Below, piece by piece: positions 13,600 to 27,542 of a stretch of 64,000 bases of DNA; position 1 is the first letter of the stretch; each line of letters starts with the position of its first letter. The translations under genes and the position numbers were made by a program. Below the pieces are notes generated by a model that did not search any database, was not told where the DNA came from, and worked only from the letters and a program-made list of their open reading frames with translations. The stretch is taken from NCBI GenBank assembly GCA_919902675.1, contig CAKKRH010000001.1, forward strand, positions 3 to 64,002, in the 5' to 3' direction. This DNA comes from Omnitrophica bacterium GWA2_41_15. GTDB taxonomy: Bacteria > Omnitrophota > Gorgyraeia > Gygaellales > UBA12090.

Positions 13600-14334
13600 A
13601 TGAGTCTGTTGAACAATAAAGATGATTTAAAGGATTTGGTGGAAAAACTTAATTTTAAGGAGAAGGTGGATAGGTCGCTTGAGCTGATCAAAGAGGCATA
13701 TCAGAAATACGGCGATAGTATGGTAGTGGCTAACAGCTTAGGCAAGGATTCGGTCTGCGTCTGGGATTTGGCAATGAAGGTCAGCCCGAAAATCCGGGGG
13801 TTTATTGTTACTACCCGTTTTAAGCCGGCAGAGACCATCAAATTTATGAATGATGAAGTCCGTAAGTACCCCCAGCTTAAAATTTATAAGAATGATGTCA
13901 AAATTGCCGATAAGCTTTATGAGACCGATCCGGATAAATGCTGCGATCTTTTAAAAGTGGAGCCGGTCAGCCGGGCCATTGAGGAGATGCAGGTCAAATG
14001 CTGGGTTACCGGACTGCGCTGCACTGAGGGCCGCACCCGCACCGATTATAAAGAAGTTGAGGAGCGGGATAAGGGCCTGGTTAAACTTAATCCTATACTA
14101 ATTTGGAAGGAAAGAGAAGTCTGGCAGTATCTGGCAATTTACGGAGTCAGGGTTAATCTTTTATACGCCGAGGGATACCGTTCCTTAGGCTGTGCCCCTT
14201 GCACCAAGATTACCAGCGACGATAACGAACGGGCCGGACGCTGGCTGGGCACCAGTAAATGCGGCGGAGAATGCGGAATACACACCCGCCCCTTAAAGAA
14301 GGTGCGTTCAGATGACGCTTTGCAGTTAATATAA
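13600..14334 (+). CDS. cysH: phosphoadenosine/adenosine phosphosulfate reductase (CysH family)
   Basis: PP-loop-like SLGKDSVCV, LGCAPCT, and a C-terminal ECGIH catalytic motif. Confidence 0.8.
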   Translation: MSLLNNKDDLKDLVEKLNFKEKVDRSLELIKEAYQKYGDSMVVANSLGKDSVCVWDLAMKVSPKIRGFIVTTRFKPAETIKFMNDEVRKYPQLKIYKNDVKIADKLYETDPDKCCDLLKVEPVSRAIEEMQVKCWVTGLRCTEGRTRTDYKEVEERDKGLVKLNPILIWKEREVWQYLAIYGVRVNLLYAEGYRSLGCAPCTKITSDDNERAGRWLGTSKCGGECGIHTRPLKKVRSDDALQLI

Positions 14335-14342
14335 CGATTGAT

Positions 14343-15185
14343 ATGGGTTTAAAAGTTGAAAACCTGAGCAAGTCTTTCTGGCGTAAAGATGTGGGGAATA
14401 TCCCCGTCCTTGAGGATGTTAGTTTTGAGCTTAAGGACGGGGAATTTGCCTGCGTGCTTGGGCCTTCAGGGTGCGGTAAATCCACCCTGCTCAATATTGC
14501 CGGGGGCCTGGTTAAGCCGGATAAGGGCAGTGTCTGTGTTGACGGTTCCCGCGTGAGCGAACCCTCGCCGGAGCGGGTGATTATTTTTCAGGAGCCCACG
14601 CTTTTTCCCTGGATGACGGTTCTTGAGAATGTGCTTTTTGCTTTAAAGACTAAACCGATCAAGAAGCCGGATAAACAGGATATTGCCATTTCTTTCTTAA
14701 GGAAGGTGCACCTGGGGAAGTTTATTAACGCCCATCCCCATGAGCTTTCCGCGGGAATGAAACAGCGGGTGGCTATTGCCCGGGCCCTGGCCATGGAGCC
14801 GAAAATACTGCTTATGGATGAGCCGCTCAGTCTGGTTGATGACCAGACCCGTTTTATGCTTCACTATGAAATCCAGCAGATTTTTAAAGAGACCAAAAAG
14901 ACTGTTTTGTTTGTTACCAGTTCGGTGGAAGAGGCAGTATGCCTGGCGGATAGATTATTTGTTTTTTCCGCCCGGCCGGGAAAGATTTTATTTGAACAAA
15001 AAATAGGCTTTTCTCATCCCAGGAGAGAAACCGATCCCCAGTTGGTATTCTTGCAGGATAACATCAGCACTATATTGGAGAGAGAATTTGAAAAGACAGC
15101 CAAAGAGGAGATGGACATTGAATACGTTCTTACGAAGAGCGGCGTTTTGGTTCCTTTTGATCGTAATCTGGGAAGCAATATTTAG
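14343..15185 (+). CDS. ABC transporter ATP-binding protein (NitT/TauT, sulfonate/nitrate/taurine type)
   Basis: Walker A GPSGCGKST, signature LSAGMKQR, Walker B LLMDEP. Confidence 0.85.
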   Translation: MGLKVENLSKSFWRKDVGNIPVLEDVSFELKDGEFACVLGPSGCGKSTLLNIAGGLVKPDKGSVCVDGSRVSEPSPERVIIFQEPTLFPWMTVLENVLFALKTKPIKKPDKQDIAISFLRKVHLGKFINAHPHELSAGMKQRVAIARALAMEPKILLMDEPLSLVDDQTRFMLHYEIQQIFKETKKTVLFVTSSVEEAVCLADRLFVFSARPGKILFEQKIGFSHPRRETDPQLVFLQDNISTILEREFEKTAKEEMDIEYVLTKSGVLVPFDRNLGSNI

Positions 15186-15873
15186 GTTTAACGTATTTCC
15201 GGCCCGTAATTTTCCTTCCTTGTGTATGGTATTGGGAAAATTCGCCGAAGGATTTATCTCCGGAGAATATTTATTATCCCTTAAGACCAGCCTGTTGAGA
15301 ATCGGTATCGGATACAGCCTGGCAATTATTTTAGGTATTTTCTTAGGGTTAGCCATGGGCCTGGTGAAGTTTATTGACGAGGGTGTAAGCGGGATACTCC
15401 TGGGCCTGCAGTCAATGGGACACGCGGCCTGGGTGCCTTTCGCGGTTTTATTCTTTGGGGAAAATGAACTGGCGGTTATTTTTATTGTCCAGATAAGCGC
15501 GATGATTGTAATTACCCTGAATACCGAAAGCGGGATAAAGTTTGTTTCACCCCAGCTCATAAACCAGGCGCGCATCAGCGGGATAAAGGGGGTAAGCCTG
15601 TTTCGGGAGGTGGTGTTGCCGGCGGCAGTGCCTTCAATAATTACCGGGATGCGCTTAGGCTGGGCTTTTTCCTGGCGGGGATTGGTTACGGCGGAGATTT
15701 TGGTTTCGGGCTTGGGTATCGGCCACATCCTTATGCGGGCCAAGGAGCAGAAAGATATGGCCTATGTTATGGCGACAATGCTTTTGATTGCCTCTATTTC
15801 TATTATTGTGGACAATCTGATTTTTAAGAACCTAGAGAACAGCGTGCGTCGGCGCTGGGGAATAGCAAAGTAA
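15088..15873 (+). CDS. ABC transporter permease (SsuC/TauC-like)
   Basis: Six-TM BPD-transporter-like ORF. The track start overlaps the ATPase by 98 nt. A TTG at about 15118 behind AGGAGA is a more likely start. Confidence 0.75.
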   Translation: MKRQPKRRWTLNTFLRRAAFWFLLIVIWEAIFRFNVFPARNFPSLCMVLGKFAEGFISGEYLLSLKTSLLRIGIGYSLAIILGIFLGLAMGLVKFIDEGVSGILLGLQSMGHAAWVPFAVLFFGENELAVIFIVQISAMIVITLNTESGIKFVSPQLINQARISGIKGVSLFREVVLPAAVPSIITGMRLGWAFSWRGLVTAEILVSGLGIGHILMRAKEQKDMAYVMATMLLIASISIIVDNLIFKNLENSVRRRWGIAK

Positions 15874-15875
15874 AC

Positions 15876-15903
15876 CCAAAATCAAAATGCGAAAATCAAA
15901 ATT
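15876..15903. repeat. heptanucleotide array (CAAAATN x4)
   Basis: CCAAAAT CAAAATG CGAAAAT CAAAATT spanning the permease/JAMM junction and the first JAMM codons. Confidence 0.55.
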
Positions 15904-16306
15904 ATGGGTAAAAAGGGAGATTTACGATGAGCTTCTCCGGCACTGTCTGAGAGAGCCGGCAAAGGAGTCCTGCGGCATACTGGCCGGCCGCTCCGGCAGG
16001 ATAGAGAGGATTTTTCCCTTAGCCAATATCTCTGATACTCCCAAACTTTGTTATATGATTGACCCTAAGGAACAACTTTCAGTTTTTAAGGAACTGCGCG
16101 AGGATAATTTGGAGTTAACAGCGATATATCACTCCCATGTGGATGTTCAGGCTTACCCGTCAAAAAAAGATGTGGAGCTGGCTTTTTATCCGGAGAGTTC
16201 TTATGTTATAATTTCCCTAAGCAAACAAAAACCGCCTGAGACGCGCTCCTTTAGGATCATCGAGGGCAAGATTGAGGAAGAAGAATTAGAAATAGTTAGT
16301 AATTGA
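15887..16306 (+). CDS. JAMM/MPN+ (Mov34) metalloprotease, Mec/QbsD/HcyD-like
   Basis: ESCGIL (catalytic Glu) and HSHVDVQAYPSKKD (HxHx7Sx2D JAMM motif). Confidence 0.8.
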   Translation: MRKSKLWVKREIYDELLRHCLREPAKESCGILAGRSGRIERIFPLANISDTPKLCYMIDPKEQLSVFKELREDNLELTAIYHSHVDVQAYPSKKDVELAFYPESSYVIISLSKQKPPETRSFRIIEGKIEEEELEIVSN

Positions 16307-17326: not shown

Positions 17327-18546
17327 CAAACTACAAATTACAAACTACAAACTACCACCTTTTTCGCGAAGCAAAAAAGGTTATCCCCGGCGGAGTAAAT
17401 AGCCCGGTGCGCTCGTTTAAGGCGGTGGGAGGCGCTCCGGTTTTTATCAAAAAGGCCTCCGGCTCAAAATTTCTCGCTGAAGACGGTAAAACCTATATAG
17501 ATTACTGTATGTCCTGGGGGGCGTTATTATTAGGCCATGCTCACTCTGAGGTTGTATCCGGGGTAAAAAAGGCGGTTGAAAAAGGCACCAGCTACGGCGC
17601 GGCTACCAAGGCCGAGACCGAATTCGCCAAGATTATTACTCGAGCCATTCCTTCCTGCGAGCTGGCGCGTTTGGTCTCATCAGGTACTGAAGCGGCGATG
17701 TCGGCAATCCGGGTTGCCCGGGGTTATACCAGGAAAAATAAAATCATTAAGTTTAAGGAATGTTATCACGGCCACAGCGATTATTTCTTATCGGGAAAAA
17801 GCGCCGGCATCCCGGAAAATATAAGCCGGGATGTCTATAGTCTTGATTATAATAACTTAGAGCAAGCGGAAGAAGCCTTAGAAAAAGATAAGGATATTGC
17901 CTGCGTGATTGTTGAACCGATCGCGGCCAATACCGGTTTGATCCTGCCTTTAAAAAGTTTCTTAGAAGGCCTGCGCAAGCTGACCTTAAAGCATAAAGCC
18001 CTGCTTATTTTTGATGAGGTGATTACCGGCTTTCGTTTTTGTTTTGGAGGCGTCCAGAATATCTTTGGGATTATCCCGGATTTGACCTGTTTAGGCAAGA
18101 TTATTGGCGGGGGTTTTCCTTTGGCCTGCTTTGGGGGAAAAAAAGAAATTATGCGCCACCTTGCTCCACTGGGAAGCGTTTATCAGGCCGGCACATTATC
18201 CGGAAACCCGGTCGCGGTCCAGGCCGGGCTTAAAACTTTAGAAATTATCAAAAAGCCCGGTTTTTATAAAAGGCTCAATGAAAAAGCCGGGTCTTTTTAT
18301 AAAAAAATAGACGGAATAATTGAAAATAAGAAAACGAATATTGTCTTAAACCGTTTTGGGGCGATGTTTCATTTCAGTTTTAAAGATAAAAAACAGTTCA
18401 GCGGATTTTTTCATAATCTATTAGCCCAAGGGATTTATCTTTCGCCGGCAGGCGATGAGGTGTGTTTTGTCTCGGCGGCGCATACGGATAAAGATTTTGA
18501 AATAACTTTAAAAGCATTGAATCATTTAAAAGAGAGGTTGGTATGA
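17308..18546 (+). CDS. hemL: glutamate-1-semialdehyde 2,1-aminomutase
   Basis: LFREAKKVIPGGVNSPVRSF, FDEVITGFR, LGKIIGGGFP (PLP Lys). Confidence 0.9.
   Translation: MAEENLTNYKLQTTNYHLFREAKKVIPGGVNSPVRSFKAVGGAPVFIKKASGSKFLAEDGKTYIDYCMSWGALLLGHAHSEVVSGVKKAVEKGTSYGAATKAETEFAKIITRAIPSCELARLVSSGTEAAMSAIRVARGYTRKNKIIKFKECYHGHSDYFLSGKSAGIPENISRDVYSLDYNNLEQAEEALEKDKDIACVIVEPIAANTGLILPLKSFLEGLRKLTLKHKALLIFDEVITGFRFCFGGVQNIFGIIPDLTCLGKIIGGGFPLACFGGKKEIMRHLAPLGSVYQAGTLSGNPVAVQAGLKTLEIIKKPGFYKRLNEKAGSFYKKIDGIIENKKTNIVLNRFGAMFHFSFKDKKQFSGFFHNLLAQGIYLSPAGDEVCFVSAAHTDKDFEITLKALNHLKERLV
17327..17354 (+). repeat. (CAAAYTA)x4 heptanucleotide array at hemB stop / hemL N-terminus
   Basis: CAAACTA CAAATTA CAAACTA CAAACTA, translated as the NLTNYKLQTTNYH extension of HemL. 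Confidence 0.8.
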
Positions 18547-18803
18547 TTACTATCGTCCTTAACGGAAAGAAAGAAGAATTGGAAAAAGAATTGACGGTTT
18601 TGGAATTATTAAAGAAGAAAAATATCCGCCCGGAAGTGGTGACAGTGGAATTAAACGAGAAAATCCTTGGCCGTCAGGAATTTGAGCAGACAATTATCCG
18701 GAATAATGATAAAATAGAGTTTGTTTATTTTATGGGAGGCGGCGGTTCGACTCAGCTGCCTTCGGCAGTTTTGCTCACCGTTGTAGAGTCGAAGGAGAGG
18801 TGA
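18543..18803 (+). CDS. ThiS-like sulfur-carrier (ubiquitin-fold) protein with 18-aa extension after the GG motif
   Basis: 68-aa ThiS-like core ending FVYFMGGGG, followed by STQLPSAVLLTVVESKER. ATGA overlap with hemL. Confidence 0.65.
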   Translation: MITIVLNGKKEELEKELTVLELLKKKNIRPEVVTVELNEKILGRQEFEQTIIRNNDKIEFVYFMGGGGSTQLPSAVLLTVVESKER

Positions 18804-18804
18804 T

Positions 18805-19737
18805 ATGCCATTTTCAGATAAAGTTGCCAATAATGTCTTAGAGCTTATTTGTAATACCCCGATTATCCGGCTTAACCGCTTGCCGGATAAGGATTCGGCG
18901 GTTATCTATGCCAAGTTAGAACAGTTTAATCCCGGAGGCTCGGTTAAAGACCGGATATGTTTGTCTATGATCCAGGAAGCTGAAAAAGAAGGCCTGCTTA
19001 AAAGCGGCTCAACCATAATTGAGCCGACCTCCGGTAACACCGGCATAGGCCTGGCAATGGTGGGAGCGGTAAAGGGTTGCCGGGTAATTCTGACTATGCC
19101 TGAGACTATGTCTATAGAGAGGATATATATCCTGAAATCTTTGGGCGCGGAAGTAGTGCTTACCCCGGGGATAGAGGGAATGAGCGGGGCAATCAAAAAG
19201 GCGGAGGAGCTTCTGAAGAATACCCCGAATAGCTTTATGCCGCAGCAATTTAAGAACAAGGCTAATCCCAAAATACACCGCGAAACCACCGCCAGGGAAA
19301 TCTTGAATGTTCTGGGAAATAAAATAGACGCCTTTGTATGCGGCGTAGGCACCGGCGGGACTATTACCGGTGTGGGGGAGGCCTTAAAAGAAAAGAATCC
19401 TAGGATAAGAGTTATCGCGGTTGAACCGGAGGCCTCGGCGGTCCTTTCCGGAGAAAAGCCGGGCGCGCATAAAATCCAGGGGATAGGCGCGGGATTTGTT
19501 CCTGAGATATTAAACCGCGAAGTTATTGACCGGATTATCAAGGTTTCAGATAACGATGCTTTTAAGACGGCCAGAAGATTAGCCAAAGAAGAAGGATTAT
19601 TCGTGGGGTTATCCAGCGGGGCCGCGGCCTGGGCCGCCTTAAAAATAGCCCAGGACTTAGGAAAAAATAAAACCGTAGTTACCATATTTCCGGATACCGG
19701 GGAAAGATACGGGAGTATGCAGCAATACTTTGAGTGA
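18805..19737 (+). CDS. cysK: cysteine synthase (O-acetylserine/O-phosphoserine sulfhydrylase, CysK/CysM family)
   Basis: NPGGSVKDR PLP-Lys motif, TSGNTG, GVGTGGTITG. Confidence 0.9.
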   Translation: MPFSDKVANNVLELICNTPIIRLNRLPDKDSAVIYAKLEQFNPGGSVKDRICLSMIQEAEKEGLLKSGSTIIEPTSGNTGIGLAMVGAVKGCRVILTMPETMSIERIYILKSLGAEVVLTPGIEGMSGAIKKAEELLKNTPNSFMPQQFKNKANPKIHRETTAREILNVLGNKIDAFVCGVGTGGTITGVGEALKEKNPRIRVIAVEPEASAVLSGEKPGAHKIQGIGAGFVPEILNREVIDRIIKVSDNDAFKTARRLAKEEGLFVGLSSGAAAWAALKIAQDLGKNKTVVTIFPDTGERYGSMQQYFE

Positions 19738-19744
19738 GAATAAA

Positions 19745-22102
19745 ATGTTTAAACTGCCTAACGAAGTAAAAGAGAGCATAAAAAATTACCGTAGTTCTTT
19801 GGAAGACCTGCTTAGCGGAAAAATCAGCCCGGCGCGCTTTACCGGCGTGCGGGTGCCCTGGGGGCTTTACAGCCATCGCGGGGGCAAGGTCTTTATGAGC
19901 CGCGTCCGGATTCCCGCAGGGCAGGTCAGCGCCGAACAGCTTAAGGCCATCGCGCGCTGCGCCCGCGCCTATGGGAATGGGATCACTCATATCACCACCA
20001 GGCAGGATATCCAAATCCATGAAGTAAAGATTGAAGATACGATTAAGGTTATTGAGTATCTGAAGGATTTTGAGCTTTCTCCCCGGGGCGGAGGAAGCAA
20101 TACCGTGAGGAATGTTACCGCTTGTGTTTTCTCCGGGATATGTCCGGATGAGGTCTTTGATACCGCCGGATACGCCATTTCTCTCACTGAATACCTTCTG
20201 GCCCAGGACAGTTCCTTTAACCTGCCGCGTAAATTCAAGGTTGCTTTCTCCGGATGCGCTAAGGACTGCGCGGCGATAGTGGTTAATGATGTCGGACTCT
20301 TAGCTAAAATAAAAGACGGGCAAAAAGGTTTTCAGGTTTTTGTCGGCGGAGGAATGGGCGCGGAGTCGCTTACCGGGCATCTCTTGGAGGAGTTTATCTC
20401 CGAGGCTGAGTTAGGTTATTGCGTCAGCGCCGTCAAAAATGTGTATTCCAAGCAAGGCGACCGCCGGAATAAGCACCATAACCGCTTAAGGTTTTTGATT
20501 AAAGATAACGGTATGGATGTTTTTAAGAAATGGTATCAGGAGGAGTTAAGAGTATTGAAAGAGGCCGAATACATCAACTTGAGGAATATTGAACCGGCGT
20601 CTCCTCAAGTCTCTGGCGGGGATATCCCTAAGGTGGAGGATAAAGACTTTAATGAATTTATAAAATACAATCTTATTGAACAGAAACAAAGCGGTTTAGT
20701 GATTGTGGAATTAAGGATTCCCCGGGGTGACCTTCCCGCGGATAGGCTGGAGAAAATCGCCGCGTTGGAAAATTATTTTCCCGGCCTGGAATACCGGGCT
20801 TCCCAGAATCAAAATCTTTGCCTTTGTAATATCCGAAAGTCCGATACCCATGAGTTGTTTTTAAAGCTGAAAGATATTTTAGAGGATTTTATCTATCCGG
20901 ACAGCCTCCAGGATGTGGTCTGCTGTAAGGGCGCGCTTACCTGTAATCTCGGCCTATGTAATTCACCGGCTTTGACCGAGGAGCTGGAGAAGCTGATAAG
21001 AGATAATTTTATCGCAAAGGCAGTGCTGAAAAAGATAAATATCAAGATAAACGGCTGTCCTAATGCCTGCGGCCAGCATCCCCTGGGGCTTATTTCCCTG
21101 CACGGAATGGTGCGCCGGGTAGGCGGGCATCCGGTTCCCTTTTATAAACTGCTTTTAGGAGGCAGGAAAGGCATTACCCTGACCCGCCTGGCTAAAGACA
21201 CCAAACTGATGATACCGGCTAAGAACTTGTTATTGTTCTTTAAGGACTTCCTGGATAAAATAAACAGCCAGATTGATGAAAATACGGATATCTATAGTTA
21301 TTTTGATGAACAGGCGGAAAGCGCGGCCAGAGAGATTACCCAGCGCTACGGCTATGTTCCGGCTTATTCGGAGAATAAGGATTATTACATTGATTGGGGC
21401 AGAAGCGAAGAGTTTTCCCTGGAGGGTATGGGGCCGGGTGAGTGCGGCTCAGGGGTTATGGATATGATTGATACGGATTTAAGCGATGCCAAAATTCATC
21501 TGGAAGCCGCGCGCGAAGATAATTATTCTGTCCAGGAAATAAAGAAGGCTTTATTCTTCAGCGCCCGGGCCCTTTTGGTGGTGCGCGGAGCTGACCCCCG
21601 GGATGAATTAAGCGCCTTAAATGATTTTGTGGAAAAGTTTGTCCGGGCAGGATTGGCTGATGGCAAATTTTCCCGGCTTAAAGAAGTATATGTCTCTTTA
21701 TCTGAAGGCCTAAGCCCTAAAGAGAAGGAAGAGAAATTTTTATACGCCCAGGAATATCTGGAACACATAAAAGAAGTATATAAAAATATGGACCCCCAGT
21801 TTAATTTTCCTAAATATTCCGCCCCTGTCTCTCAACAGGAGGTAAAAGTAGAAGTTGAGCCATCGGAAGTTAAATCTCCGGTTTTGGATTTAAAGGGGGT
21901 ACGTTGCCCGATGAATTATGTCCAGGCGAAATTATACTTAGAGAATATCAAGATCGGCGAGACGGTTGAGATATGTTTAGACGAGGGTGAGCCGATCCAG
22001 AATGTCCCGGTCAGCCTTAAAAACGACGGCCAGGAGATCTTAGGGATTACAAGAATAGAGAATTATTATAAGGTGCTGGTAAAAAAATTAGTTGATAGTT
22101 GA
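19745..22102 (+). CDS. assimilatory-type sulfite reductase (NIR_SIR siroheme/4Fe-4S) fused to C-terminal TusA/SirA-like domain
   Basis: TACVFSGIC...SGCAKDC and CCKGALTCNLGLC...NGCPNAC cluster motifs. C-terminal LDLKGVRCPMNYVQAKL...GETVEICLDEGEP is TusA-like. ATG 19745 is preferred over track GTG 19730. Confidence 0.75.
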   Translation: MFKLPNEVKESIKNYRSSLEDLLSGKISPARFTGVRVPWGLYSHRGGKVFMSRVRIPAGQVSAEQLKAIARCARAYGNGITHITTRQDIQIHEVKIEDTIKVIEYLKDFELSPRGGGSNTVRNVTACVFSGICPDEVFDTAGYAISLTEYLLAQDSSFNLPRKFKVAFSGCAKDCAAIVVNDVGLLAKIKDGQKGFQVFVGGGMGAESLTGHLLEEFISEAELGYCVSAVKNVYSKQGDRRNKHHNRLRFLIKDNGMDVFKKWYQEELRVLKEAEYINLRNIEPASPQVSGGDIPKVEDKDFNEFIKYNLIEQKQSGLVIVELRIPRGDLPADRLEKIAALENYFPGLEYRASQNQNLCLCNIRKSDTHELFLKLKDILEDFIYPDSLQDVVCCKGALTCNLGLCNSPALTEELEKLIRDNFIAKAVLKKINIKINGCPNACGQHPLGLISLHGMVRRVGGHPVPFYKLLLGGRKGITLTRLAKDTKLMIPAKNLLLFFKDFLDKINSQIDENTDIYSYFDEQAESAAREITQRYGYVPAYSENKDYYIDWGRSEEFSLEGMGPGECGSGVMDMIDTDLSDAKIHLEAAREDNYSVQEIKKALFFSARALLVVRGADPRDELSALNDFVEKFVRAGLADGKFSRLKEVYVSLSEGLSPKEKEEKFLYAQEYLEHIKEVYKNMDPQFNFPKYSAPVSQQEVKVEVEPSEVKSPVLDLKGVRCPMNYVQAKLYLENIKIGETVEICLDEGEPIQNVPVSLKNDGQEILGITRIENYYKVLVKKLVDS

Positions 22103-22117
22103 TAGTTTATGGTTTAT
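22090..22117. repeat. heptanucleotide array (GTTGATA GTTGATA GTTTATG GTTTATA)
   Basis: Read directly across the sulfite reductase stop codon. Confidence 0.75.
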
Positions 22118-22144
22118 AGCAAACCTAAACTAAAGGAGCAGGCT

Positions 22145-23419
22145 ATGAGCTATGTGTTAGGTTTAAAATGCCGGGAATGTGGCCGGGAATACCCTAAGGA
22201 TGTTTTGTTTGTCTGCGAGTATTGCTTTGGCTCTTTAGAAGTAAATTATGATTACAAAGCTATCAAGAAAAACCTGACCAAAGAAACTCTCTTGGGCCGT
22301 CCCAAAAATATGTGGCGCTATAAGGAGCTCCTGCCCATTGATAAAGACCCGGCAGTCGGGCTAGATTCAGGATATACTCCTTTGATTAAGGCGAATAATT
22401 TGGCCAGGGTTTTGGGAGTGAGAGAGCTTTATCTCAAAGACGATTCCGTAAATCATCCAACCTTGTCTTTTAAAGACAGGGTGGTCTCCGTGGCTATCTC
22501 CAAGGCCAGGGAATTTGGTTTTGACACCGTGGCCTGCGCCTCAACCGGCAATCTGGCTAATTCCGTCTCGGCCCAGGCCGCATCCTGCGGGCTAAAGGCT
22601 TATATTTTTATTCCGGCTGACCTGGAAACAGGTAAGGTGGTAGCCTCGCAGATTTATAATCCCAACCTTATCGGTATTGAAGGAAACTATGATGAGGTTA
22701 ACCGTCTTTGTTCGGAGATTGCCTCCAGATACCGCTGGGCCTTTGTGAACATCAATATCCGTCCCTTTTACGCCGAGGGCTCCAAGTCAATGGGGTATGA
22801 GATTGCCGAGCAATTGGATTGGAAATTGCCCAAACATATTGTGGTGCCGTCAGCAGGCGGCTCGTTGATTACTAAGCTTTGGAAGAGCTTTAAGGAATTG
22901 AAAGAGCTGGGATTTCTGGAGAAGGCGGATACTAAGGTTTACTGCGCCCAGGGCCAGGGCTGCGCCCCGATAGTTACCGCGATCAAGGAAAAGTCCGAGG
23001 TAATTCGGCCGGTTAAGCCCAAGACTATTGCCAAGAGCCTGGCGATCGGAAATCCCGCCGACGGATATTATGCCGTAGACACGGTGAGAAAATCCGGCGG
23101 TTTTGCTGAGGAGGCCTCTGACGAAGAAATTGTAGAGGCAATAAAATTATTAGCCAAAACCGAAGGAATTTTCACCGAGACCGCCGGAGGGGTTACTTTG
23201 GCGGCAGCCAAGAAGCTAATCGAGCAGGGGATTATTCCTAAAGACGAGTCAATTGTCATCTGCATTACCGGAAACGGCCTTAAGACCCTGGAAGTGGTTA
23301 CTAAGTCTTTGCCCAGGCTGGTGAAAATCAAACCAAACTTAGCCAGTTTTGAAGAGCATATTAAAAACGGCGCGCACCAGAAGATTTCCGAGAACAAGGT
23401 TATTGAGTATTATATTTAA
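22145..23419 (+). CDS. threonine synthase-like PLP enzyme with N-terminal zinc ribbon (MetM-like candidate)
   Basis: CRECG...CEYC zinc ribbon, HPTLSFKDR PLP-Lys motif, ASTGNLANS. ATG 22145 behind AAGGAG is preferred over track start 22109, which lies in the heptad array. Confidence 0.8.
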   Translation: MSYVLGLKCRECGREYPKDVLFVCEYCFGSLEVNYDYKAIKKNLTKETLLGRPKNMWRYKELLPIDKDPAVGLDSGYTPLIKANNLARVLGVRELYLKDDSVNHPTLSFKDRVVSVAISKAREFGFDTVACASTGNLANSVSAQAASCGLKAYIFIPADLETGKVVASQIYNPNLIGIEGNYDEVNRLCSEIASRYRWAFVNINIRPFYAEGSKSMGYEIAEQLDWKLPKHIVVPSAGGSLITKLWKSFKELKELGFLEKADTKVYCAQGQGCAPIVTAIKEKSEVIRPVKPKTIAKSLAIGNPADGYYAVDTVRKSGGFAEEASDEEIVEAIKLLAKTEGIFTETAGGVTLAAAKKLIEQGIIPKDESIVICITGNGLKTLEVVTKSLPRLVKIKPNLASFEEHIKNGAHQKISENKVIEYYI

Positions 23420-23430
23420 GGAGGAAAGAA

Positions 23431-23718
23431 ATGATGGCAAAAGTTAAGGTGAGGATTCCGGCGCCCCTGCAGAAGATTACCCAGAATAAACAGGAGGTAA
23501 TTGCTGAGGCAAAGAATATCAAAGAGCTGATTCTGGATTTAGAGAAACAGTTTCCGGGGATGAAAGACCGCCTGCTGGATGAAAGCGGGAAGATTCGGCG
23601 TTTTATTAATTTCTATGTTAATGATGAGGATATTCGTTTTCTGAAACAGGACGAAACCCAGTTAGTTGAGGGAAGTGAAGTTTCCATAATTCCCGCTATT
23701 GCCGGCGGCCTAAAATAG
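23431..23718 (+). CDS. MoaD/CysO-like sulfur-carrier protein with GG followed by 2 extra residues (LK)
   Basis: 95-aa beta-grasp-like ORF ending SIIPAIAGG-LK. GGAGG RBS. Confidence 0.65.
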   Translation: MMAKVKVRIPAPLQKITQNKQEVIAEAKNIKELILDLEKQFPGMKDRLLDESGKIRRFINFYVNDEDIRFLKQDETQLVEGSEVSIIPAIAGGLK

Positions 23719-23740: not shown

Positions 23741-24565
23741 ATGGCGTTAACTAATGAGCAGATTGACCGGTATTCCCGGCAGATAATTTTACCAAATGTC
23801 GGGGGTAAGGGCCAGGATAAGATTCTTAAAAGCAAAGTTTTGGTTATCGGAACCGGCGGCCTGGGGGCGCCCTGCAGTTTTTATCTGGCCGCCGCCGGGG
23901 TGGGAAAAATCGGTTTAGTGGATTCGGATAAGGTTGAGTTGAATAACCTGCAAAGACAGATTGTGCATACTACTTTGGATGTAGGCATACCCAAGGTTGA
24001 ATCCGGGAAGAAACGGTTGAACGCCTTAAATCCGGATACCGAGGTAGTTACCTATAATTTAAGGTTAGATTCCGGTAATATTCTGGATGTGATTAAAGAT
24101 TACGATATCGTGGTGGACGGCTCGGATAATTTCCCCACCCGTTATTTAGTCAATGATGCCTGCGTGATTGCTAAAAAACCTTTAGTGCATGCCGGAATTT
24201 TTCGTTACGACGGCCAGATTATGACTATCCTGCCGGGGAAAGGCCCTTGTTACCGCTGCCTGTTCCCGGAGCCGCCTCCGGCCGGGGCTGTGCCCAGTTG
24301 TCAGGAGGGAGGGATACTCGGGGCAGTGGCCGGGGTTTTGGGAGTGCTCCAGGCCAATGAGGCCCTGAAATTTATCCTGCAAAGCGGAGAGCTTTTATCC
24401 GGAAGGCTGTTGATATTTAACGCCTCAGATGCTTCTTTTAGGACAGTTAAAGTGCCTAAGGATAAAGATTGTCCGGTTTGCTCAGAACATCCCACAGTTA
24501 CCAAATTAATTGATTATCAGGAATTCTGCAGTTTGAAGCAGAATAAGGATTGCAGTATAAAATAG
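23741..24565 (+). CDS. ThiF/MoeB/HesA family E1-like adenylyltransferase (no rhodanese domain)
   Basis: RYSRQIILPNVG, GTGGLGAP nucleotide loop, DNFPTRY, CYRC and CPVC zinc pairs. Confidence 0.85.
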   Translation: MALTNEQIDRYSRQIILPNVGGKGQDKILKSKVLVIGTGGLGAPCSFYLAAAGVGKIGLVDSDKVELNNLQRQIVHTTLDVGIPKVESGKKRLNALNPDTEVVTYNLRLDSGNILDVIKDYDIVVDGSDNFPTRYLVNDACVIAKKPLVHAGIFRYDGQIMTILPGKGPCYRCLFPEPPPAGAVPSCQEGGILGAVAGVLGVLQANEALKFILQSGELLSGRLLIFNASDASFRTVKVPKDKDCPVCSEHPTVTKLIDYQEFCSLKQNKDCSIK

Positions 24566-24571
24566 GAGATA

Positions 24572-24814
24572 ATGATGGCAAAAAGAATAATAAAGCTTAC
24601 TTTCCCCAAGGATCTGATTAAAGAACCTTTAACCTTCACTATGGCTAAGAAATATAATATTATGCCCAATATCCGCCGGGCCAAGGTTACCGAGAGCGTG
24701 GGGGAGCTGGTTCTGGAGTTAGACGGCCAGGAGCAGGATTTGGATAAGGGCGTTGAGTTTTTGAAGAAGTCAGGGGTAATTGTGGAATCTATCGTCGGAG
24801 ATGTAATCGGGTAG
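24572..24814 (+). CDS. NIL domain protein
   Basis: 80 aa. The IIKLTFPKDLIKEPLTFTMAKKYNIMPNIRRAKV pattern resembles the NIL domain of MetN C-termini and methanogen homocysteine-synthesis partners. Confidence 0.6.
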   Translation: MMAKRIIKLTFPKDLIKEPLTFTMAKKYNIMPNIRRAKVTESVGELVLELDGQEQDLDKGVEFLKKSGVIVESIVGDVIG

Positions 24815-25675: not shown

Positions 25676-26734
25676 ATGAAAAGCGAAGTCTATTTTATCC
25701 CGCTTAATTCTAAAGATATCCGGGAAAGAGTTTCGGCTTTAGAGAAACTCAATGACCGGCTCAGCCCGTTTTTAACCTATAAAAAAGATGAGCTGGTCCC
25801 GGTCAAGCTTACTATCGGGGATTCAACCTGCGTCTATAATATCAATCCCCAATTAGTTAAGGTAATCAGCGCGGGAATAAAAAAACGCTCCGCCAAGCCC
25901 TTTATTTTTGACACCTCGGTTATCTACAGCGGCAGGCGCCAGAATGCCTTTGACCATCTCACCTTGGCCCAAGACAAAGGATTTGGTTATGTTAAGGCGG
26001 GCGCGCCCTTTATAATTGCCGACGGCCTCCTGGGCCAGGACGGACGAGTTTATGAAACCGGTTCCCCGATTATCCCCAAGATTAAGGTCCCTTCCTTTGT
26101 GGGAATGTTGGACAGCCTGGTGGTCTTGACCCATGCCACCGGGCATATCGTTTCCGTATACGGAGGAGCGATCAAGAATGTGGCGATGGGGATGTCCTGC
26201 CGGGCCACTAAGCAACTTCAACATTCTTCGCTTAAACCCAGTGTCATCGCGAAAAAATGCTCCTCCTGCGGCTGTTGTATCGCCGTCTGCCCGGCCGGAG
26301 CCATTACCTATGATAAGGACAATAAGGCCCTGATAAACCAGGGGCTTTGCGTAGGCTGTGCCGAGTGTATCTGCGCCTGTAATTTTGACGCGGTCTACAT
26401 CAACTGGAAAGAAGACCCCCGCGTATTCTGCCGCCGGATGGCTGATACCGCCAAAACTATCCTCTCTAAATTCAAAAACAAAATCTTTATCACCTTCGCC
26501 CTGGATATCACCAAAGAATGCGACTGCATATCCACCAAAGATGAGAAAATGATTTCCCAGGATATCGGAATTTTGGCCTCTACCGATATCTTAAGCCTGG
26601 ATAAGGCAGTGGTAGACTTGATCAATCAGGACCAGCACCGCCATTTCAAAGACGCCGGGGTATACGAAGATATGTTCAGCTACGCCTCATCCCAAGGGCT
26701 GGGAAATTTAGAATATAACCTGATAAAAGTATAA
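25676..26734 (+). CDS. DUF362 domain protein with inserted 2x[4Fe-4S] ferredoxin motif
   Basis: N-terminal VYFIPL...VPVKLTIGD DUF362-like pattern. CSSCGCCIAVCP and CVGCAECICAC ferredoxin motifs. Confidence 0.65.
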   Translation: MKSEVYFIPLNSKDIRERVSALEKLNDRLSPFLTYKKDELVPVKLTIGDSTCVYNINPQLVKVISAGIKKRSAKPFIFDTSVIYSGRRQNAFDHLTLAQDKGFGYVKAGAPFIIADGLLGQDGRVYETGSPIIPKIKVPSFVGMLDSLVVLTHATGHIVSVYGGAIKNVAMGMSCRATKQLQHSSLKPSVIAKKCSSCGCCIAVCPAGAITYDKDNKALINQGLCVGCAECICACNFDAVYINWKEDPRVFCRRMADTAKTILSKFKNKIFITFALDITKECDCISTKDEKMISQDIGILASTDILSLDKAVVDLINQDQHRHFKDAGVYEDMFSYASSQGLGNLEYNLIKV

Positions 26735-26975: not shown

Positions 26976-27542
26976 ATGATCAATCCATATCTTATTTCTA
27001 CTAATCATCAGAAAGTTTTAAGCTTCTTCGTCCTTCATCCGGGCGCGTCTTTTTATGAGAGGGAAATCGCGCGTAAGAGCGGCTTGAGCCCAAGTTCAAC
27101 CCACTATGTTTTGACGCGTCTTTATCGGGCGGGCGTGATTAACCGAAATCAAAATGGCCGGATGTATTTTTATTTTGTTGATGCGACAAACCCTTATCTT
27201 AAAGAGTTTAAGGGCTTGGCTAATTTGCTTTTAATTGAGCCTTTGGTGGAAAAGTTGAAAGGATTAAGCCATAAAATAGTCCTCTTTGGCAGCTGGGCAG
27301 AGGGAAGCGATAATAAGGATAGCGATATAGATCTATTTATTGTCAGTTTTGAAAAAGAAAAGGCGCTATCAGTAATCAATAAATTCTCTTATTCCGCTAA
27401 ACTCTGTAATCGCAAGGTCCAGCCGATTATCAAGTCTCCGGAAGAGCTTTTAAGAAAAGGTAAAGAAAAAAGCGTATTCTTTGAGCAAGTAGAGAAAGGG
27501 AAAGTCCTCTGGGAAAGGGAGATTAATGACGATATCCTTTAA
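26976..27542 (+). CDS. wHTH-fused minimal nucleotidyltransferase (MNT-type antitoxin)
   Basis: N-terminal wHTH (YEREIARKSGLSPSSTHYVLTRL) followed by the GSWAEGSDNKDSDIDLFIV NTase motif. Confidence 0.7.
   Translation: MINPYLISTNHQKVLSFFVLHPGASFYEREIARKSGLSPSSTHYVLTRLYRAGVINRNQNGRMYFYFVDATNPYLKEFKGLANLLLIEPLVEKLKGLSHKIVLFGSWAEGSDNKDSDIDLFIVSFEKEKALSVINKFSYSAKLCNRKVQPIIKSPEELLRKGKEKSVFFEQVEKGKVLWEREINDDIL

What the first reader, a model, noticed from the sequence alone, without database searches (positions are those of the whole stretch)
19745..22102. Sulfite reductase fused to a TusA-like sulfur-relay domain, with Cys-cluster motifs in both halves
The 790-aa ORF has NIR_SIR-type motifs twice: TACVFSGIC...SGCAKDC and CCKGALTCNLGLC...NGCPNAC. 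It ends in a TusA/SirA-like domain (DLKGVRCPMNY). A covalently attached TusA suggests the reduced sulfur is handed on as a protein-bound species, not released as free sulfide. That would fit delivery to the adjacent E1-activated carriers. A helical region of about 170 aa lies between the reductase and TusA parts and has no family I recognise.
Basis: partly seen in the sequence, partly recalled or inferred. Interest (0 to 1): 0.55.

Follow-up and report, generated by a model that had tools for sequence, protein, structure and literature searches.

The report
Sulfite reductase with tethered TusA sulfur carrier
This gene encodes a sulfite-reducing enzyme permanently joined, through a small helical domain, to a sulfur-carrier domain; the same fusion sits in several bacterial phyla beside the machinery that makes cysteine and homocysteine from protein-bound sulfur, so the reduced sulfur is probably handed on by the protein, which nobody has yet tested.

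Summary
Window 19745-22102 (+) is one uninterrupted 785-aa gene with four parts:
- a NirA-type siroheme sulfite reductase core;
- a divergent HEPN-like helical domain;
- a disordered linker;
- a TusA domain (Pfam E 3e-15).

It is not a frameshift or assembly join. The same architecture occurs in over 120 protein clusters and in MAGs of Omnitrophota, Planctomycetota, Desulfobacterota, Nitrospinota, Latescibacterota, Spirochaetota and Chitinivibrionales.

Across 89 diverse members, three things are invariant: the canonical active site, a Glu-Cys in a glycine-rich flexible loop (C567), and the TusA Cys-Pro (C721). The second, N-half four-Cys motif occurs only in a subset and lacks mirrored substrate-binding residues.

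Of 34 loci with enough flank, 29 also carry an E1 (never with a rhodanese domain), 28 a ThiS-type carrier and 27 a JAB protease. No locus has a separate TusA.

Best reading: a tethered two-cysteine relay passes reduced sulfur to E1-activated carriers for thiocarboxylate-dependent cysteine and homocysteine synthesis. That step is inferred, not shown.

Iyer et al. (2006) already noted that a SirA (TusA-family) protein accompanies such operons. I found no paper describing the fusion, its middle domain or the retained N-half motif. I rate it a new variant of a known kind, of moderate interest.

The parts
19745..22102 (+). Whole gene: 785-aa sulfite reductase / HEPN-like / TusA fusion (stop included)
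   Evidence: ORF and translation. Pfam domains. Same architecture in more than 120 clusters and in several phyla.
19874..20551 (+). N-terminal half of the reductase (NIR_SIR_ferr aa 44-107, NIR_SIR aa 119-269). It carries the substrate-binding residues R53, R55, R86, R122, R162, K163 and K165.
   Evidence: Pfam. All these residues are invariant, bar a few substitutions at R53/R55, in the 89 sequences aligned. 'LPRKFK' matches maize SiR and Mtb NirA, not the plant NiR 'PRKWN'.
20123..20269 (+). N-half CX5C...CX3C motif (C127, C133, C171, C175). Probably an extra Fe-S site retained from the ancestral duplication.
   Evidence: Codons verified. In register with the C-half motif. Present only in a subset of the family. 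Absent from the solved aSiR/NiR sequences shown.
20642..21334 (+). C-terminal half of the reductase (second NIR_SIR_ferr + NIR_SIR)
   Evidence: Pfam reports two stretches of each family. PDB alignments reach query aa ~503. Foldseek: Mtb NirA 1zj8 at E 4.6e-33.
20924..21070 (+). Canonical [4Fe-4S]/siroheme ligand motif C394-X5-C400 ... C438-X3-C442, plus the extra conserved C405
   Evidence: The four ligands are invariant in all 89 sequences; C405 is conserved in most.
21362..21814 (+). Family-specific, divergent HEPN-like helical domain (aa ~540-690)
   Evidence: Pfam HEPN E 0.093. Domain model pLDDT 84.6. Best Foldseek PDB hits are HEPN proteins: 2hsb E 0.02, TM 0.65. hhalign against the window's own HEPN protein: 85.8% probability. 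Only 265 hits among 1.84 billion representatives, nearly all at the same position of ~770-800-aa proteins.
21419..21454 (+). Glycine-rich flexible loop LEGMGPGECGSG with invariant E566-C567 (Cys codon 21443-21445)
   Evidence: E566 and C567 are invariant in all 89 sequences. pLDDT is below 50 in both models.
21815..21880 (+). Disordered linker that tethers TusA (aa 691-712)
Evidence: pLDDT below 50 for aa 695-710.
21881..22087 (+). TusA domain (aa 713-781) with invariant C721-P722 (Cys codon 21905-21907)
   Evidence: Pfam TusA E 3e-15, above gathering. Beta-alpha-beta-alpha-beta-beta fold in the model. Foldseek E. coli TusA 3lvj_C, TM 0.82. Cys-Pro present in every sequence that covers the position.
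13600..14334 (+). PAPS/APS reductase (CysH-like), the likely supplier of sulfite
   Evidence: Pfam PAPS_reduct E 6e-39. NCBIfam phosphoadenylyl-sulfate reductase above cut-off. Found in 29 of 34 loci that carry the fusion.
15887..16306 (+). JAB/Mec-type metalloprotease, predicted to trim the carriers to their GG end
   Evidence: Pfam Prok-JAB E 1.4e-23. Found in 27 of 34 loci.
18543..18803 (+). ThiS-type sulfur carrier 1 (CysO/HcyS-like), with a GG end followed by a C-terminal tail
   Evidence: Pfam ThiS match ends at residue 67 of 86, inside the GGGG run. Orthologues end GGG+SVSN and GGGG+I. Found in 28 of 34 loci.
18805..19737 (+). Cysteine synthase (CysK/CysM family), immediately upstream of the fusion
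   Evidence: Pfam PALP. NCBIfam cysK 452.6 bits, above cut-off. Found in 21 of 34 loci.
22109..23419 (+). Threonine-synthase-like PLP enzyme with an N-terminal Cys-rich zinc-ribbon-like segment. Candidate MetM-type thiocarboxylate-dependent homocysteine synthase.
   Evidence: Pfam PALP. NCBIfam threonine synthase models. A MoaD-like carrier and an E1 follow directly. GapMind notes that MetM is a ThrC homologue that is often misannotated. The assignment is an inference.
23431..23718 (+). ThiS/MoaD-type sulfur carrier 2 (MetO-like), ending ...AGG+LK
   Evidence: Pfam ThiS E 1.3e-15. Sequence.
23741..24565 (+). E1-like adenylyltransferase (ThiF/MoeB family), 274 aa, with no rhodanese domain
   Evidence: Pfam ThiF only. 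NCBIfam MoeB/UbaA-type hits. Found in 29 of 34 loci.

Best explanation
**What it is.** The gene encodes a ferredoxin-type, siroheme-[4Fe-4S] assimilatory sulfite reductase. Its C-terminus carries a built-in sulfur relay: a HEPN-like helical domain whose flexible glycine-rich loop holds an invariant Glu-Cys (C567), then a disordered tether, then a TusA domain with the invariant carrier cysteine (C721).

**Proposed pathway.**
1. Sulfite made by the neighbouring PAPS/APS reductase is reduced at the canonical C-half siroheme site.
2. The reduced sulfur is captured on the tethered cysteines as a persulfide instead of diffusing away.
3. TusA delivers it to ThiS/MoaD-type carriers that the rhodanese-less E1 has adenylated.
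4. This gives carrier thiocarboxylates, which cysteine synthase and the MetM-like ThrC homologue (MetY in other phyla) use to make cysteine and homocysteine.
5. The JAB protease matures the carriers.

**Two chemically plausible capture routes.**
- (a) A C567-C721 disulfide is opened by nascent sulfide to give C721-S-SH. After the persulfide attacks the acyl-adenylate, C567 resolves the acyl-disulfide, releases the thiocarboxylate and re-forms the disulfide. This cycle is redox-neutral and compatible with ordinary six-electron aSiR chemistry.
- (b) A DsrC-like interception of a partly reduced, zero-valent sulfur at the siroheme.

**Shown here:** domain architecture, invariant residues, conserved gene linkage.

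**Inferred:** sulfite as substrate, persulfide loading, transfer to E1/carriers, and the role of C567.

**N-half motif.** The four-Cys motif in the N-half most likely binds an additional Fe-S cluster (electron relay or structural). It is probably not a second catalytic site.
For: **Architecture and fold.**

**Active site.** The canonical ligands and anion-binding residues are conserved throughout the family. That includes the SiR-type Lys165, where plant nitrite reductases have Asn.

**Candidate relay residues.** E566-C567 and C721-P722 are invariant in 89 sequences spanning about 27-95% identity and two subfamilies. Both cysteines sit on or next to predicted flexible elements: the loop and the linker have pLDDT below 50.

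**Gene linkage across phyla.** Among 34 loci with flank: PAPS reductase 29, E1 29, ThiS 28, JAB 27, MetY 24, CysK/M 21. A Spirochaete operon of the other subfamily reads ThiS-MetY-ThiF-JAB-fusion-DUF2061-CysH-CysD-CysNC-siroheme genes-MnmA.

**No alternative sulfur donor nearby.**
- The window's E1 (274 aa) and L047's (268 aa) have only the ThiF domain, with no rhodanese.
- No stand-alone TusA is present in the window or in 46 loci.
- None of the Pfam-scanned genes between 13.1 and 26.7 kb of the window, nor any called gene in L047, is a cysteine desulfurase.

**Literature.**
- Iyer et al. 2006 found that such operons 'always contain a SirA' while the E1 'always lacks' rhodanese. They also found that some actinobacteria fuse ThiS itself to sulfite reductase (PMC1779556).
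- Cao et al. 2026 report zero-valent sulfur as the direct product of assimilatory sulfite reductases (PMC13188885).

**From established knowledge, not tested here.**
- E. coli TusA carries a persulfide from IscS.
- Rhodanese-domain persulfides on MOCS3/Uba4 form thiocarboxylates via acyl-disulfides.
- ThiI uses a persulfide Cys plus a resolving Cys.
Against: - No biochemical data exist for any member of this family.
- From my own knowledge, not verified here (the paper is not held): free bisulfide sufficed in vitro to make HcyS and CysO thiocarboxylates in the W. succinogenes and M. tuberculosis systems. A relay is therefore not chemically required.
- The active site has aSiR traits (Arg122, CX5C). 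The Fsr structural paper takes these to imply a complete six-electron reduction without released intermediates (PMC10229431). This argues against route (b).
- The upstream cysteine synthase scores as an ordinary CysK, and CysK can use free sulfide.
- The Nitrospinota-type members (L007, L008) keep both cysteines but have no carrier, E1 or JAB genes within the flank held, up to 10 kb. They lie divergent from glnA-amt-PII genes.
- Many of the 34 loci are related Planctomycetota, so the counts are not independent events.
Confidence: 0.55

Rival explanations
1. The enzyme is an ordinary sulfide-releasing sulfite reductase. The HEPN-like/TusA extension is only a docking, oligomerisation or redox-regulatory module, for example a C567-C721 disulfide switch or recruitment of E1/CysK so that free sulfide is used locally. 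It does not itself carry sulfur.
For: - The active site is fully aSiR-like. Such sites are thought to run to sulfide without intermediates (PMC10229431).
- HEPN domains commonly dimerise (own knowledge).
- CysK is of the ordinary type.
- Bisulfide alone works in vitro in related pathways (own knowledge).
- The Nitrospinota-type members lack carrier genes nearby.
Against: - The invariance of exactly the TusA carrier Cys-Pro, and of a second Cys on a flexible loop, across very divergent members is what a chemical role predicts, not a docking role.
- Rhodanese is absent from both E1s scanned, and no other TusA was found in any of these operons. This matches the complementary pattern noted in 2006.
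Confidence: 0.25
2. The function is on the input side. The TusA domain, like YeeD/TsuB, brings thiosulfate or sulfane sulfur to the enzyme. It would split thiosulfate into a Cys-persulfide plus sulfite, and the siroheme site would then reduce the sulfite.
For: - The TusA domain also resembles YeeD in the YeeE-YeeD thiosulfate-uptake complex (Foldseek 8k1r).
- The window has an ABC importer of the nitrate/sulfonate/taurine type between cysH and the JAB gene.
- The window has no sulfate-activation genes.
Against: - No YeeE-like gene was seen in the annotated loci.
- PAPS reductase is the most conserved partner (29 of 34 loci). Full sulfate-activation genes accompany the fusion in L047 and an ATP sulfurylase in L049. 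This points to sulfate-derived sulfite.
- The YeeD matches are weak (TM 0.09 over the whole model).
Confidence: 0.08
3. It is a nitrite reductase (NirA), or a dual nitrite/sulfite reductase, and the TusA domain has a role unrelated to sulfur.
For: - The best whole-protein sequence matches are plant ferredoxin-nitrite reductases and NCBIfam NirA models, all below their cut-offs.
- L007 and L008 lie next to glnA, amt and P-II genes.
Against: - SiR-type Lys165 ('PRKFK') is invariant, including in L007 and L008, where NiR has Asn.
- The structurally closest protein is Mtb NirA, which is a sulfite reductase (own knowledge).
- The operon context is sulfur assimilation in most loci.
- The nitrogen genes in L007 are divergently transcribed and about 0.9 kb away.
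Confidence: 0.04
4. It is an artefact: two genes joined by a frameshift or a mis-assembly near 21.8 kb.
For: None found. The linker region is low-confidence in the model.
Against: - The reading frame is continuous.
- Over 120 independent clusters and MAGs from several phyla have the same full-length architecture.
Confidence: 0.01

Closest known systems
Mycobacterium tuberculosis NirA/SirA ferredoxin-dependent sulfite reductase (PDB 1zj8), and plant ferredoxin sulfite/nitrite reductases (5h8v, 2akj, 3b0g)
   Same: Same two-half fold: Foldseek E 4.6e-33, target TM 0.77. Same C-half CX5C...CX3C ligands and the same Arg/Lys anion-binding residues, including the 'PRK(F/Y)K' lysines.
   Different: About 22-25% identity, and below every NCBIfam equivalog cut-off. 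The solved enzymes have no HEPN-like domain and no TusA. The sequences shown have no Cys at the four N-half positions.
Thiocarboxylate-dependent amino-acid pathways: W. succinogenes HcyS/HcyD/HcyF/MetY with Sir, M. tuberculosis CysO/CysM/Mec/MoeZ, Streptomyces MetM/MetO
   Same: Same gene set around the fusion: a GG-ended carrier with a tail, a JAB protease, an E1, a PLP sulfhydrylase (CysK/M, MetY or ThrC-like), and a sulfate-reduction gene (literature).
   Different: MoeZ carries its own rhodanese domain, whereas here the E1 lacks one and the only sulfurtransferase-type domain sits on the sulfite reductase. For the W. succinogenes system, my recollection is that bisulfide was used in vitro. 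I could not check whether its Sir carries TusA.
Type '4e' ThiS/MoaD-JAB-E1 sulfur-metabolism neighbourhoods of Iyer, Burroughs and Aravind 2006 (PMC1779556)
   Same: They describe E1 without rhodanese, SirA (TusA-family) always present, sulfite reductase and PAPS reductase in the same neighbourhood, and a predicted transfer of assimilated sulfur to the carrier.
   Different: The text read lists SirA among the proteins encoded in the neighbourhood and reports no fusion of it to the reductase. The only fusion they comment on is ThiS-to-sulfite reductase in actinobacteria. The HEPN-like domain, the invariant loop Cys and the N-half motif are not mentioned there.
DsrAB-DsrC dissimilatory sulfite reductase with its cysteine-bearing sulfur carrier
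   Same: A siroheme sulfite reductase working with a carrier that offers two conserved cysteines on flexible elements. Both halves (subunits) keep a cluster motif, but only one site is catalytic (PMC10229431).
   Different: Here the carrier has a TusA fold, not DsrC/TusE, and is covalently tethered. The active site has aSiR traits (Arg122, CX5C), not the DsrB-type CXnCCX3C. The context is biosynthetic, not respiratory.
E. coli TusA (IscS-TusA, PDB 3lvj) and YeeD/TsuB
   Same: Same fold (target TM 0.82) and the same Cys-Pro carrier motif.
   Different: It is a domain of a reductase, not a free protein. No cysteine desulfurase was found in the operons annotated.

Membership tests
Siroheme-[4Fe-4S] assimilatory sulfite/nitrite reductase (NirA/Sir type) | Two tandem halves, each NIR_SIR_ferr + NIR_SIR | tested here: met
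   Pfam reports two stretches of each family, E 1.2e-48 and 1.7e-28. Internal repeat E 9e-6.
Siroheme-[4Fe-4S] assimilatory sulfite/nitrite reductase (NirA/Sir type) | CX5C...CX3C cluster/siroheme ligands in the C-terminal half | tested here: met
   C394, C400, C438 and C442 are invariant in 89 sequences.
Siroheme-[4Fe-4S] assimilatory sulfite/nitrite reductase (NirA/Sir type) | Anion-binding Arg/Lys in the N-half, with the SiR-type second Lys in 'PRKxK' | tested here: met
   R86, R122, R162, K163 and K165 are invariant; R53 and R55 nearly so. The query reads 'PRKFK', as in maize SiR; tobacco NiR reads 'PRKWN'.
Siroheme-[4Fe-4S] assimilatory sulfite/nitrite reductase (NirA/Sir type) | Fold match to solved members | tested here: met
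   Foldseek 1zj8 E 4.6e-33; plant NiR and SiR, E. coli SiRHP.
Siroheme-[4Fe-4S] assimilatory sulfite/nitrite reductase (NirA/Sir type) | Score above a curated equivalog cut-off (NirA, Sir, CysI) | tested here: not met
   The best score is 220 bits against a cut-off of 594 (NF007125). Every model is below its cut-off. The protein is therefore a member of the superfamily, not of any curated equivalog.
Siroheme-[4Fe-4S] assimilatory sulfite/nitrite reductase (NirA/Sir type) | Siroheme and Fe-S occupancy; six-electron sulfite reduction | not testable with these tools
   Needs purified protein.
TusA/SirA sulfurtransferase (PF01206) | Profile match above the gathering score | tested here: met
   56.3 bits against 28.6, covering profile positions 3-70 of 70.
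TusA/SirA sulfurtransferase (PF01206) | Conserved carrier Cys (Cys-Pro) at the start of helix 1 | tested here: met
   C721-P722 are present in every sequence that covers the position.
TusA/SirA sulfurtransferase (PF01206) | Two-layer beta-alpha-beta-alpha-beta-beta fold | tested here: met
   DSSP elements E713-715, H723-733, E740-746, H749-760, E764-771, E774-780. E. coli TusA 3lvj_C TM 0.82.
TusA/SirA sulfurtransferase (PF01206) | Accepts and donates a persulfide | not testable with these tools
   Needs mass spectrometry of the protein during turnover.
HEPN domain (PF05168) | Profile match above the gathering score | tested here: not met
   13.3 bits against 22, E 0.093.
HEPN domain (PF05168) | Rx4-6H catalytic motif | tested here: not met
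   The invariant and near-invariant residues of the domain include no His. R608 is invariant among the 43 closer homologues, but no His follows it.
HEPN domain (PF05168) | HEPN helical-bundle fold | tested here: inconclusive
   The top Foldseek hits are HEPN proteins, but none reaches E 0.001 (best 2hsb E 0.02, TM 0.65). hhalign against a bona fide HEPN protein gives 85.8% probability. A profile search of PDB sequences gave only coiled-coil noise.
DsrAB/DsrC dissimilatory system | DsrB-type CXnCCX3C motif, and Thr in place of the aSiR Arg | tested here: not met
   The query has CX5C and an invariant Arg122. Criteria taken from PMC10229431.
DsrAB/DsrC dissimilatory system | DsrC/TusE-fold carrier with two Cys on its C-terminal arm | tested here: not met
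   The carrier domain has a TusA fold. Two invariant Cys exist, but on separate elements.
Thiocarboxylate-dependent Cys/Hcy biosynthesis cluster (CysO/HcyS/MetO type) | Ubiquitin-like carrier ending in GG plus a removable tail | tested here: met
   The two carriers in the window end GGGG plus a tail, and GG+LK. Orthologues end GGG+SVSN and GGGG+I.
Thiocarboxylate-dependent Cys/Hcy biosynthesis cluster (CysO/HcyS/MetO type) | JAB protease, E1 adenylyltransferase and a PLP sulfhydrylase in one neighbourhood | tested here: met
.
Thiocarboxylate-dependent Cys/Hcy biosynthesis cluster (CysO/HcyS/MetO type) | Carrier thiocarboxylate is formed and used | not testable with these tools
   Needs reconstitution.

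The most novel reading that the evidence does not exclude
This family may be an assimilatory sulfite reductase that does not release free sulfide at all. Like DsrAB with DsrC, it would hand a partly or fully reduced sulfur atom to its own tethered cysteine pair (C567 and C721), which would feed carrier thiocarboxylates and perhaps MnmA. The subfamily that includes this gene also keeps the ancestral cluster-binding motif in both halves. That would make it a surviving intermediate between the two-site ancestor (as in DsrAB and Fsr dimers) and modern one-site assimilatory enzymes.
Probability: 0.2. Interest if true: 0.8.

Novelty: new variant of a known kind. Interest (0 to 1): 0.55.

Why it matters
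**The open question.** The physiological sulfur donor for CysO/HcyS/MetO-type thiocarboxylates is unsettled in organisms that build cysteine from sulfate. A cysteine desulfurase cannot be the net source of sulfur for making cysteine. Whether assimilatory sulfite reductases release sulfide or zero-valent sulfur is also now disputed (PMC13188885 versus the view in PMC10229431).

**What this fusion offers.**
- A natural fusion that ties a persulfide-carrier domain to the reductase, across many phyla and always beside the carrier/E1 machinery, is a 'Rosetta stone' for a direct protein-to-protein hand-off.
- It gives a single polypeptide in which the hand-off can be tested with two point mutants.
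- The retained N-half cluster motif bears on how one-site assimilatory enzymes evolved from a two-site ancestor.

**Limits.** The parts are all known families. The SirA association was predicted in 2006. Databases already hold hundreds of these proteins under generic names.

Tried and rejected
1. **Frameshift or assembly join at ~21.8 kb.** Rejected: the frame is continuous and the architecture recurs widely.
2. **Two catalytic siroheme sites.** Rejected as the likely reading. C-half equivalents of R86, R122 and K165 are absent or not conserved, and the N-half Cys are missing in a whole subfamily.
3. **Co-variation of the N-half motif with the loop Cys.** A regex screen suggested it, but a proper alignment showed E566-C567 is invariant in both subfamilies.
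4. **Nitrite reductase.** Made unlikely by SiR-type Lys165 and the gene context.
5. **A stand-alone TusA elsewhere in the window or loci.** None was found with a family-built HMM. A very divergent TusA could be missed.
6. **Sulfate-activation, MetY, MnmA or siroheme-synthase genes in the window.** None found by tblastn.
7. **Profile search of the middle domain against PDB sequences.** Only coiled-coil noise such as flagellar cap proteins and designed bundles.
8. **Literature.** No paper describing a sulfite reductase-TusA fusion turned up. The W. succinogenes paper is not held. A search for the N226K nitrite-reductase work found nothing, and PMC9295563 had no residue discussion.
9. **Spatial relation of C567 and TusA to the active site.** Model coordinates are not exposed and the loop has pLDDT below 50, so no claim is made.

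Full report
**1. The observation**

Window 19730/19745-22102 (+) is one open reading frame. It is 790 aa from a TTG and 785 aa from the ATG at 19745. Homologues begin MFKLP, which favours the ATG.

Pfam finds three families:
- NIR_SIR twice, E 1.2e-48.
- NIR_SIR_ferr twice, E 1.7e-28.
- TusA at aa 714-781, E 3e-15, 56 bits against a gathering score of 28.6.

The two halves of the reductase align with each other (E 9e-6), with the CX5C and CX3C motifs in register.

- The TusA model hits well above threshold.
- There is no frameshift or join. More than 120 clusters at 90% identity have the same three Pfam families in ~770-790-aa proteins.
- Full-length copies occur in independent MAGs labelled Omnitrophota, Deltaproteobacteria, Nitrospinota, 'Nitrospirae' and many Planctomycetota, and a copy cut off by the contig end in Latescibacterota. 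They also occur in Spirochaetota and Chitinivibrionales.

The window itself is from an Omnitrophota bacterium, with 94% protein identity to L001.

**2. Anatomy**

*Reductase core (aa ~30-530).*
- The closest solved sequences are plant ferredoxin-nitrite reductases (E about 1e-37) and M. tuberculosis NirA.
- An AlphaFold2 model (mean pLDDT 87.5, pTM 0.76) superposes best on Mtb NirA 1zj8 (Foldseek E 4.6e-33), then on plant NiR, plant SiR and E. coli SiRHP.
- It falls below every NCBIfam equivalog cut-off. It is a member of the superfamily, not of a curated family.

*Conservation across 89 diverse sequences (loci plus 50%-identity representatives).*
- The canonical site is invariant: C394, C400, C438, C442, and R86, R122, R162, K163, K165. 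R53 and R55 are nearly invariant.
- K165 is the second lysine of 'LPRKFK'.
- Maize SiR has 'LPRKFK' and Mtb NirA has 'LPRKYK'.
- Tobacco NiR has 'LPRKWN', and the PDB holds an N226K mutant with K at that position.
- From my own knowledge, that mutant was made to mimic sulfite reductase.
- Together with the gene context, this favours sulfite as the substrate for the whole family.

*The N-half motif.*
- C127, C133, C171 and C175 are invariant in the query's subfamily (Omnitrophota, Planctomycetota, Nitrospinota and others).
- They are replaced by Ser, Asp, Pro or Asn in a second subfamily, for example Spirochaete P0220 and Chitinivibrionales P0173.
- The C-half positions that would mirror R86, R122 and K165 are Gln, Gln and Asn in the query, and the mirror positions checked (390, 429, 430) vary across the family.
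- I therefore read the N-half motif as an additional Fe-S site, serving as electron relay or structural element, possibly with a non-catalytic siroheme as in DsrA. I do not read it as a second active site.
- It is still unusual. [quoted passage not shown]
- The solved sequences shown have no Cys at these positions.

*Middle region (aa ~540-690).*
- A separate model (pLDDT 84.6) is a helical bundle.
- All of its best PDB matches are HEPN proteins (2hsb E 0.02, TM 0.65; sacsin HEPN; TT1696), but none reaches E 0.001.
- Pfam gives a sub-threshold HEPN hit, E 0.093.
- A profile of 36 diverse members aligns with the window's own bona fide HEPN protein (27526-27966, Pfam E 9e-13) at 85.8% hhalign probability.
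- There is no Rx4-6H motif.
- So it is a divergent, non-catalytic HEPN-like domain.
- It is essentially private to this fusion. Among 1.84 billion representatives, only 265 match at E <= 0.001, nearly all at positions ~530-700 of ~770-800-aa proteins or in fragments.

*The loop and the tether.*
- Just before the bundle lies a glycine-rich loop (LEGMGPGECGSG) whose E566-C567 is invariant in all 89 sequences of both subfamilies. It is predicted flexible, with pLDDT below 50.
- A disordered linker (aa 695-710) then tethers TusA.
- The Cys-Pro of TusA (C721-P722) is likewise invariant, and its fold matches E. coli TusA at TM 0.82.

**3. Gene context**

The window reads, in order: Rrf2 regulator, PAPS/APS reductase, ABC importer, JAB protease, HemB, HemL, ThiS-type carrier (GG plus a tail), CysK/M, the fusion, ThrC-like PLP enzyme, MoaD-type carrier (GG+LK), E1 without rhodanese, and a NIL-domain protein.

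In Planctomycetota, where the fusion is only 35-38% identical, the order is Rrf2, DUF2061, PAPS reductase, MetY, ThiS, E1, JAB, fusion, CysK/M, often followed by MnmA.

A Spirochaete operon of the other subfamily reads ThiS, MetY, ThiF, JAB, fusion, DUF2061, CysH, CysD, CysNC, siroheme and tetrapyrrole genes, MnmA.

Counts over 34 loci with at least 4 kb of flank:

| Neighbour | Loci (of 34) |
|---|---|
| PAPS reductase | 29 |
| E1 | 29 |
| ThiS-type carrier | 28 |
| JAB protease | 27 |
| MetY | 24 |
| CysK/M | 21 |
| MnmA | 11 |

Many of these loci are related Planctomycetota, so the counts are not independent. The linkage nevertheless holds in four or more phyla and in both subfamilies.

Further points on context:
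- The two E1s whose domains were scanned (window, L047) have only the ThiF domain.
- A TusA HMM built from the family finds no second TusA in the window or in any of 46 loci.
- None of the genes whose domains were annotated is a cysteine desulfurase.
- This is the neighbourhood type in which Iyer, Burroughs and Aravind (2006) noted that the E1 'always lacks' rhodanese while a SirA (TusA-family) protein is 'always' present. They also noted that some actinobacteria fuse ThiS itself to sulfite reductase (PMC1779556).
- The ThrC-like gene followed by a carrier and an E1 resembles the MetM/MetO homocysteine route (Hasebe et al. 2024, as cited in the GapMind 2026 preprint). That assignment is inferred.

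*Exception.* The Nitrospinota-type copies (L007, L008, 40% identity) keep every invariant residue. They have none of these neighbours and lie divergent from glnA-amt-PII genes.

**4. How it most likely works**

*Shown:* the architecture, two invariant cysteines on or beside flexible elements, and the conserved linkage.

*Inferred:*
1. Sulfite is reduced at the C-half siroheme site.
2. The product is captured as a persulfide on the tethered cysteines.
3. TusA delivers it to the E1-adenylated carriers, taking the role that a rhodanese domain plays in MoeZ, MOCS3 and Uba4.

Two capture routes are chemically plausible:
- (a) Nascent sulfide opens a C567-C721 disulfide to give C721-S-SH. The persulfide attacks the carrier acyl-adenylate. 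C567 then resolves the acyl-disulfide, releases the thiocarboxylate and re-forms the disulfide. This is redox-neutral, compatible with ordinary six-electron chemistry, and analogous to the persulfide and resolving cysteines of ThiI (own knowledge).
- (b) A DsrC-like interception of zero-valent sulfur at the siroheme. Cao et al. 2026 favour this: they report S0 as the direct product of assimilatory reductases and state that no DsrC-like carrier is known in assimilation (PMC13188885). The aSiR-type active-site traits (Arg122, CX5C) argue against it.

A logical point supports a relay fed by the reductase. These operons make cysteine, so a cysteine desulfurase cannot be the net sulfur source for the carriers.

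I give the general relay model a confidence of 0.55. Section 5 gives the alternatives.

**5. Rival explanations**

| Rival | Confidence |
|---|---|
| The extension is only a docking, dimerisation or redox-switch module and free sulfide is the product. From my recollection, bisulfide suffices in vitro in related systems. | 0.25 |
| Input-side role: YeeD-like handling of thiosulfate | 0.08 |
| Nitrite reductase | 0.04 |
| Artefact | about 0 |

**6. Comparison with what is known, and novelty**

All the parts belong to known families, and the functional association was predicted in 2006. NCBI and JGI already label hundreds of these proteins ('sulfurtransferase TusA family protein', 'sulfite reductase (ferredoxin)').

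I found no paper on any of the following:
- the covalent fusion;
- its private HEPN-like domain with the invariant Glu-Cys loop;
- the retention of the N-half cluster motif in an assimilatory-type enzyme.

No member appears to have been studied. Every named source I saw is a MAG.

I classify it as a new variant of a known kind, with interest 0.55. It is not a surprise in kind. It does offer a single-polypeptide test of two live questions: what donates sulfur to biosynthetic thiocarboxylates, and what assimilatory sulfite reductases really release.

**7. Limits**

- Substrate specificity rests on one discriminating residue plus gene context.
- The W. succinogenes paper could not be read.
- The genome scan was seeded with peptide patterns from this protein, so the taxonomic picture is biased towards close relatives.

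Noticed in passing
L007:9992-12385 and L008:2971-5364: The Nitrospinota/'Nitrospirae' copies of the fusion (40% identity) keep all the invariant Cys. They have no carrier, E1, JAB, CysK or PAPS-reductase genes within the flank held (up to 10 kb). They lie divergent from a P-II / ammonium transporter / glutamine synthetase cluster, with DUF420 and TPR genes downstream. Their substrate and partners are unclear.
   Followed up: partly
L038:13117-14316; L047:21525-22352; 11 of 34 loci: MnmA (tRNA 2-thiouridine synthase) recurs at the end of the operon in Planctomycetota and in a Spirochaete. In E. coli MnmA is the end point of the TusA relay (own knowledge), so the tethered TusA might also serve tRNA thiolation.
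   Followed up: partly
window 18543-18803: The ThiS-type carrier has a long tail of about 18 residues after its GG end. Orthologues in other phyla have tails of 1-4 residues. The tail would have to be removed by the JAB protease, and its length is unexplained.
   Followed up: partly
window 24572-24814; also L002:14058-14291 and L045:11790-12023: A stand-alone 80-aa NIL-domain protein follows the E1 gene in Omnitrophota and in a Latescibacterota MAG. NIL domains are otherwise known from MetN and from methanogen homocysteine-synthesis proteins (own knowledge). Its role here is unknown.
   Followed up: no
window 13600-15873: The PAPS/APS reductase is followed by an ABC ATPase and permease of the nitrate/sulfonate/taurine type. 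The best NCBIfam hits are SaoA and SaoP, both below cut-off. No binding-protein gene was identified. The 64-kb window has no ATP sulfurylase, CysDN or APS kinase, so the route to the activated sulfate or sulfite is not visible here.
   Followed up: partly
window 25676-26734: A DUF362 protein with an inserted 4Fe-4S ferredoxin domain lies downstream of the cluster. It is conserved only in the closest relatives (L001, L006). It could be an electron-transfer partner, but nothing links it to the reductase.
   Followed up: no
window 26976-27966: A nucleotidyltransferase (with an N-terminal winged-helix domain) and a HEPN protein form an overlapping gene pair of the MNT-HEPN toxin-antitoxin type. 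The HEPN protein served as the comparator for the middle domain of the fusion.
   Followed up: partly
window 9506-12454: A 982-aa ORF with a hydrophobic N-terminus and no Pfam match at E <= 0.01.
   Followed up: no
window 12539-13080: A MazE/AbrB-type antitoxin gene overlaps a 93-aa ORF with no Pfam match. This is probably a small toxin-antitoxin pair just upstream of the Rrf2 regulator.
   Followed up: no
L038:6316-6537; L047:12354-12584; 20 of 34 loci: A small DUF2061 membrane protein is conserved next to the PAPS reductase or the fusion in Planctomycetota and a Spirochaete. It was not detected in the window.
   Followed up: no
proteins P0124, P0185, P0200, P0262 and others: Many proteins of 250-330 aa consist of the HEPN-like domain plus TusA, with about 60 residues in front. 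They may be fragments from short contigs, or genuinely split genes encoding the relay module on its own.
   Followed up: no
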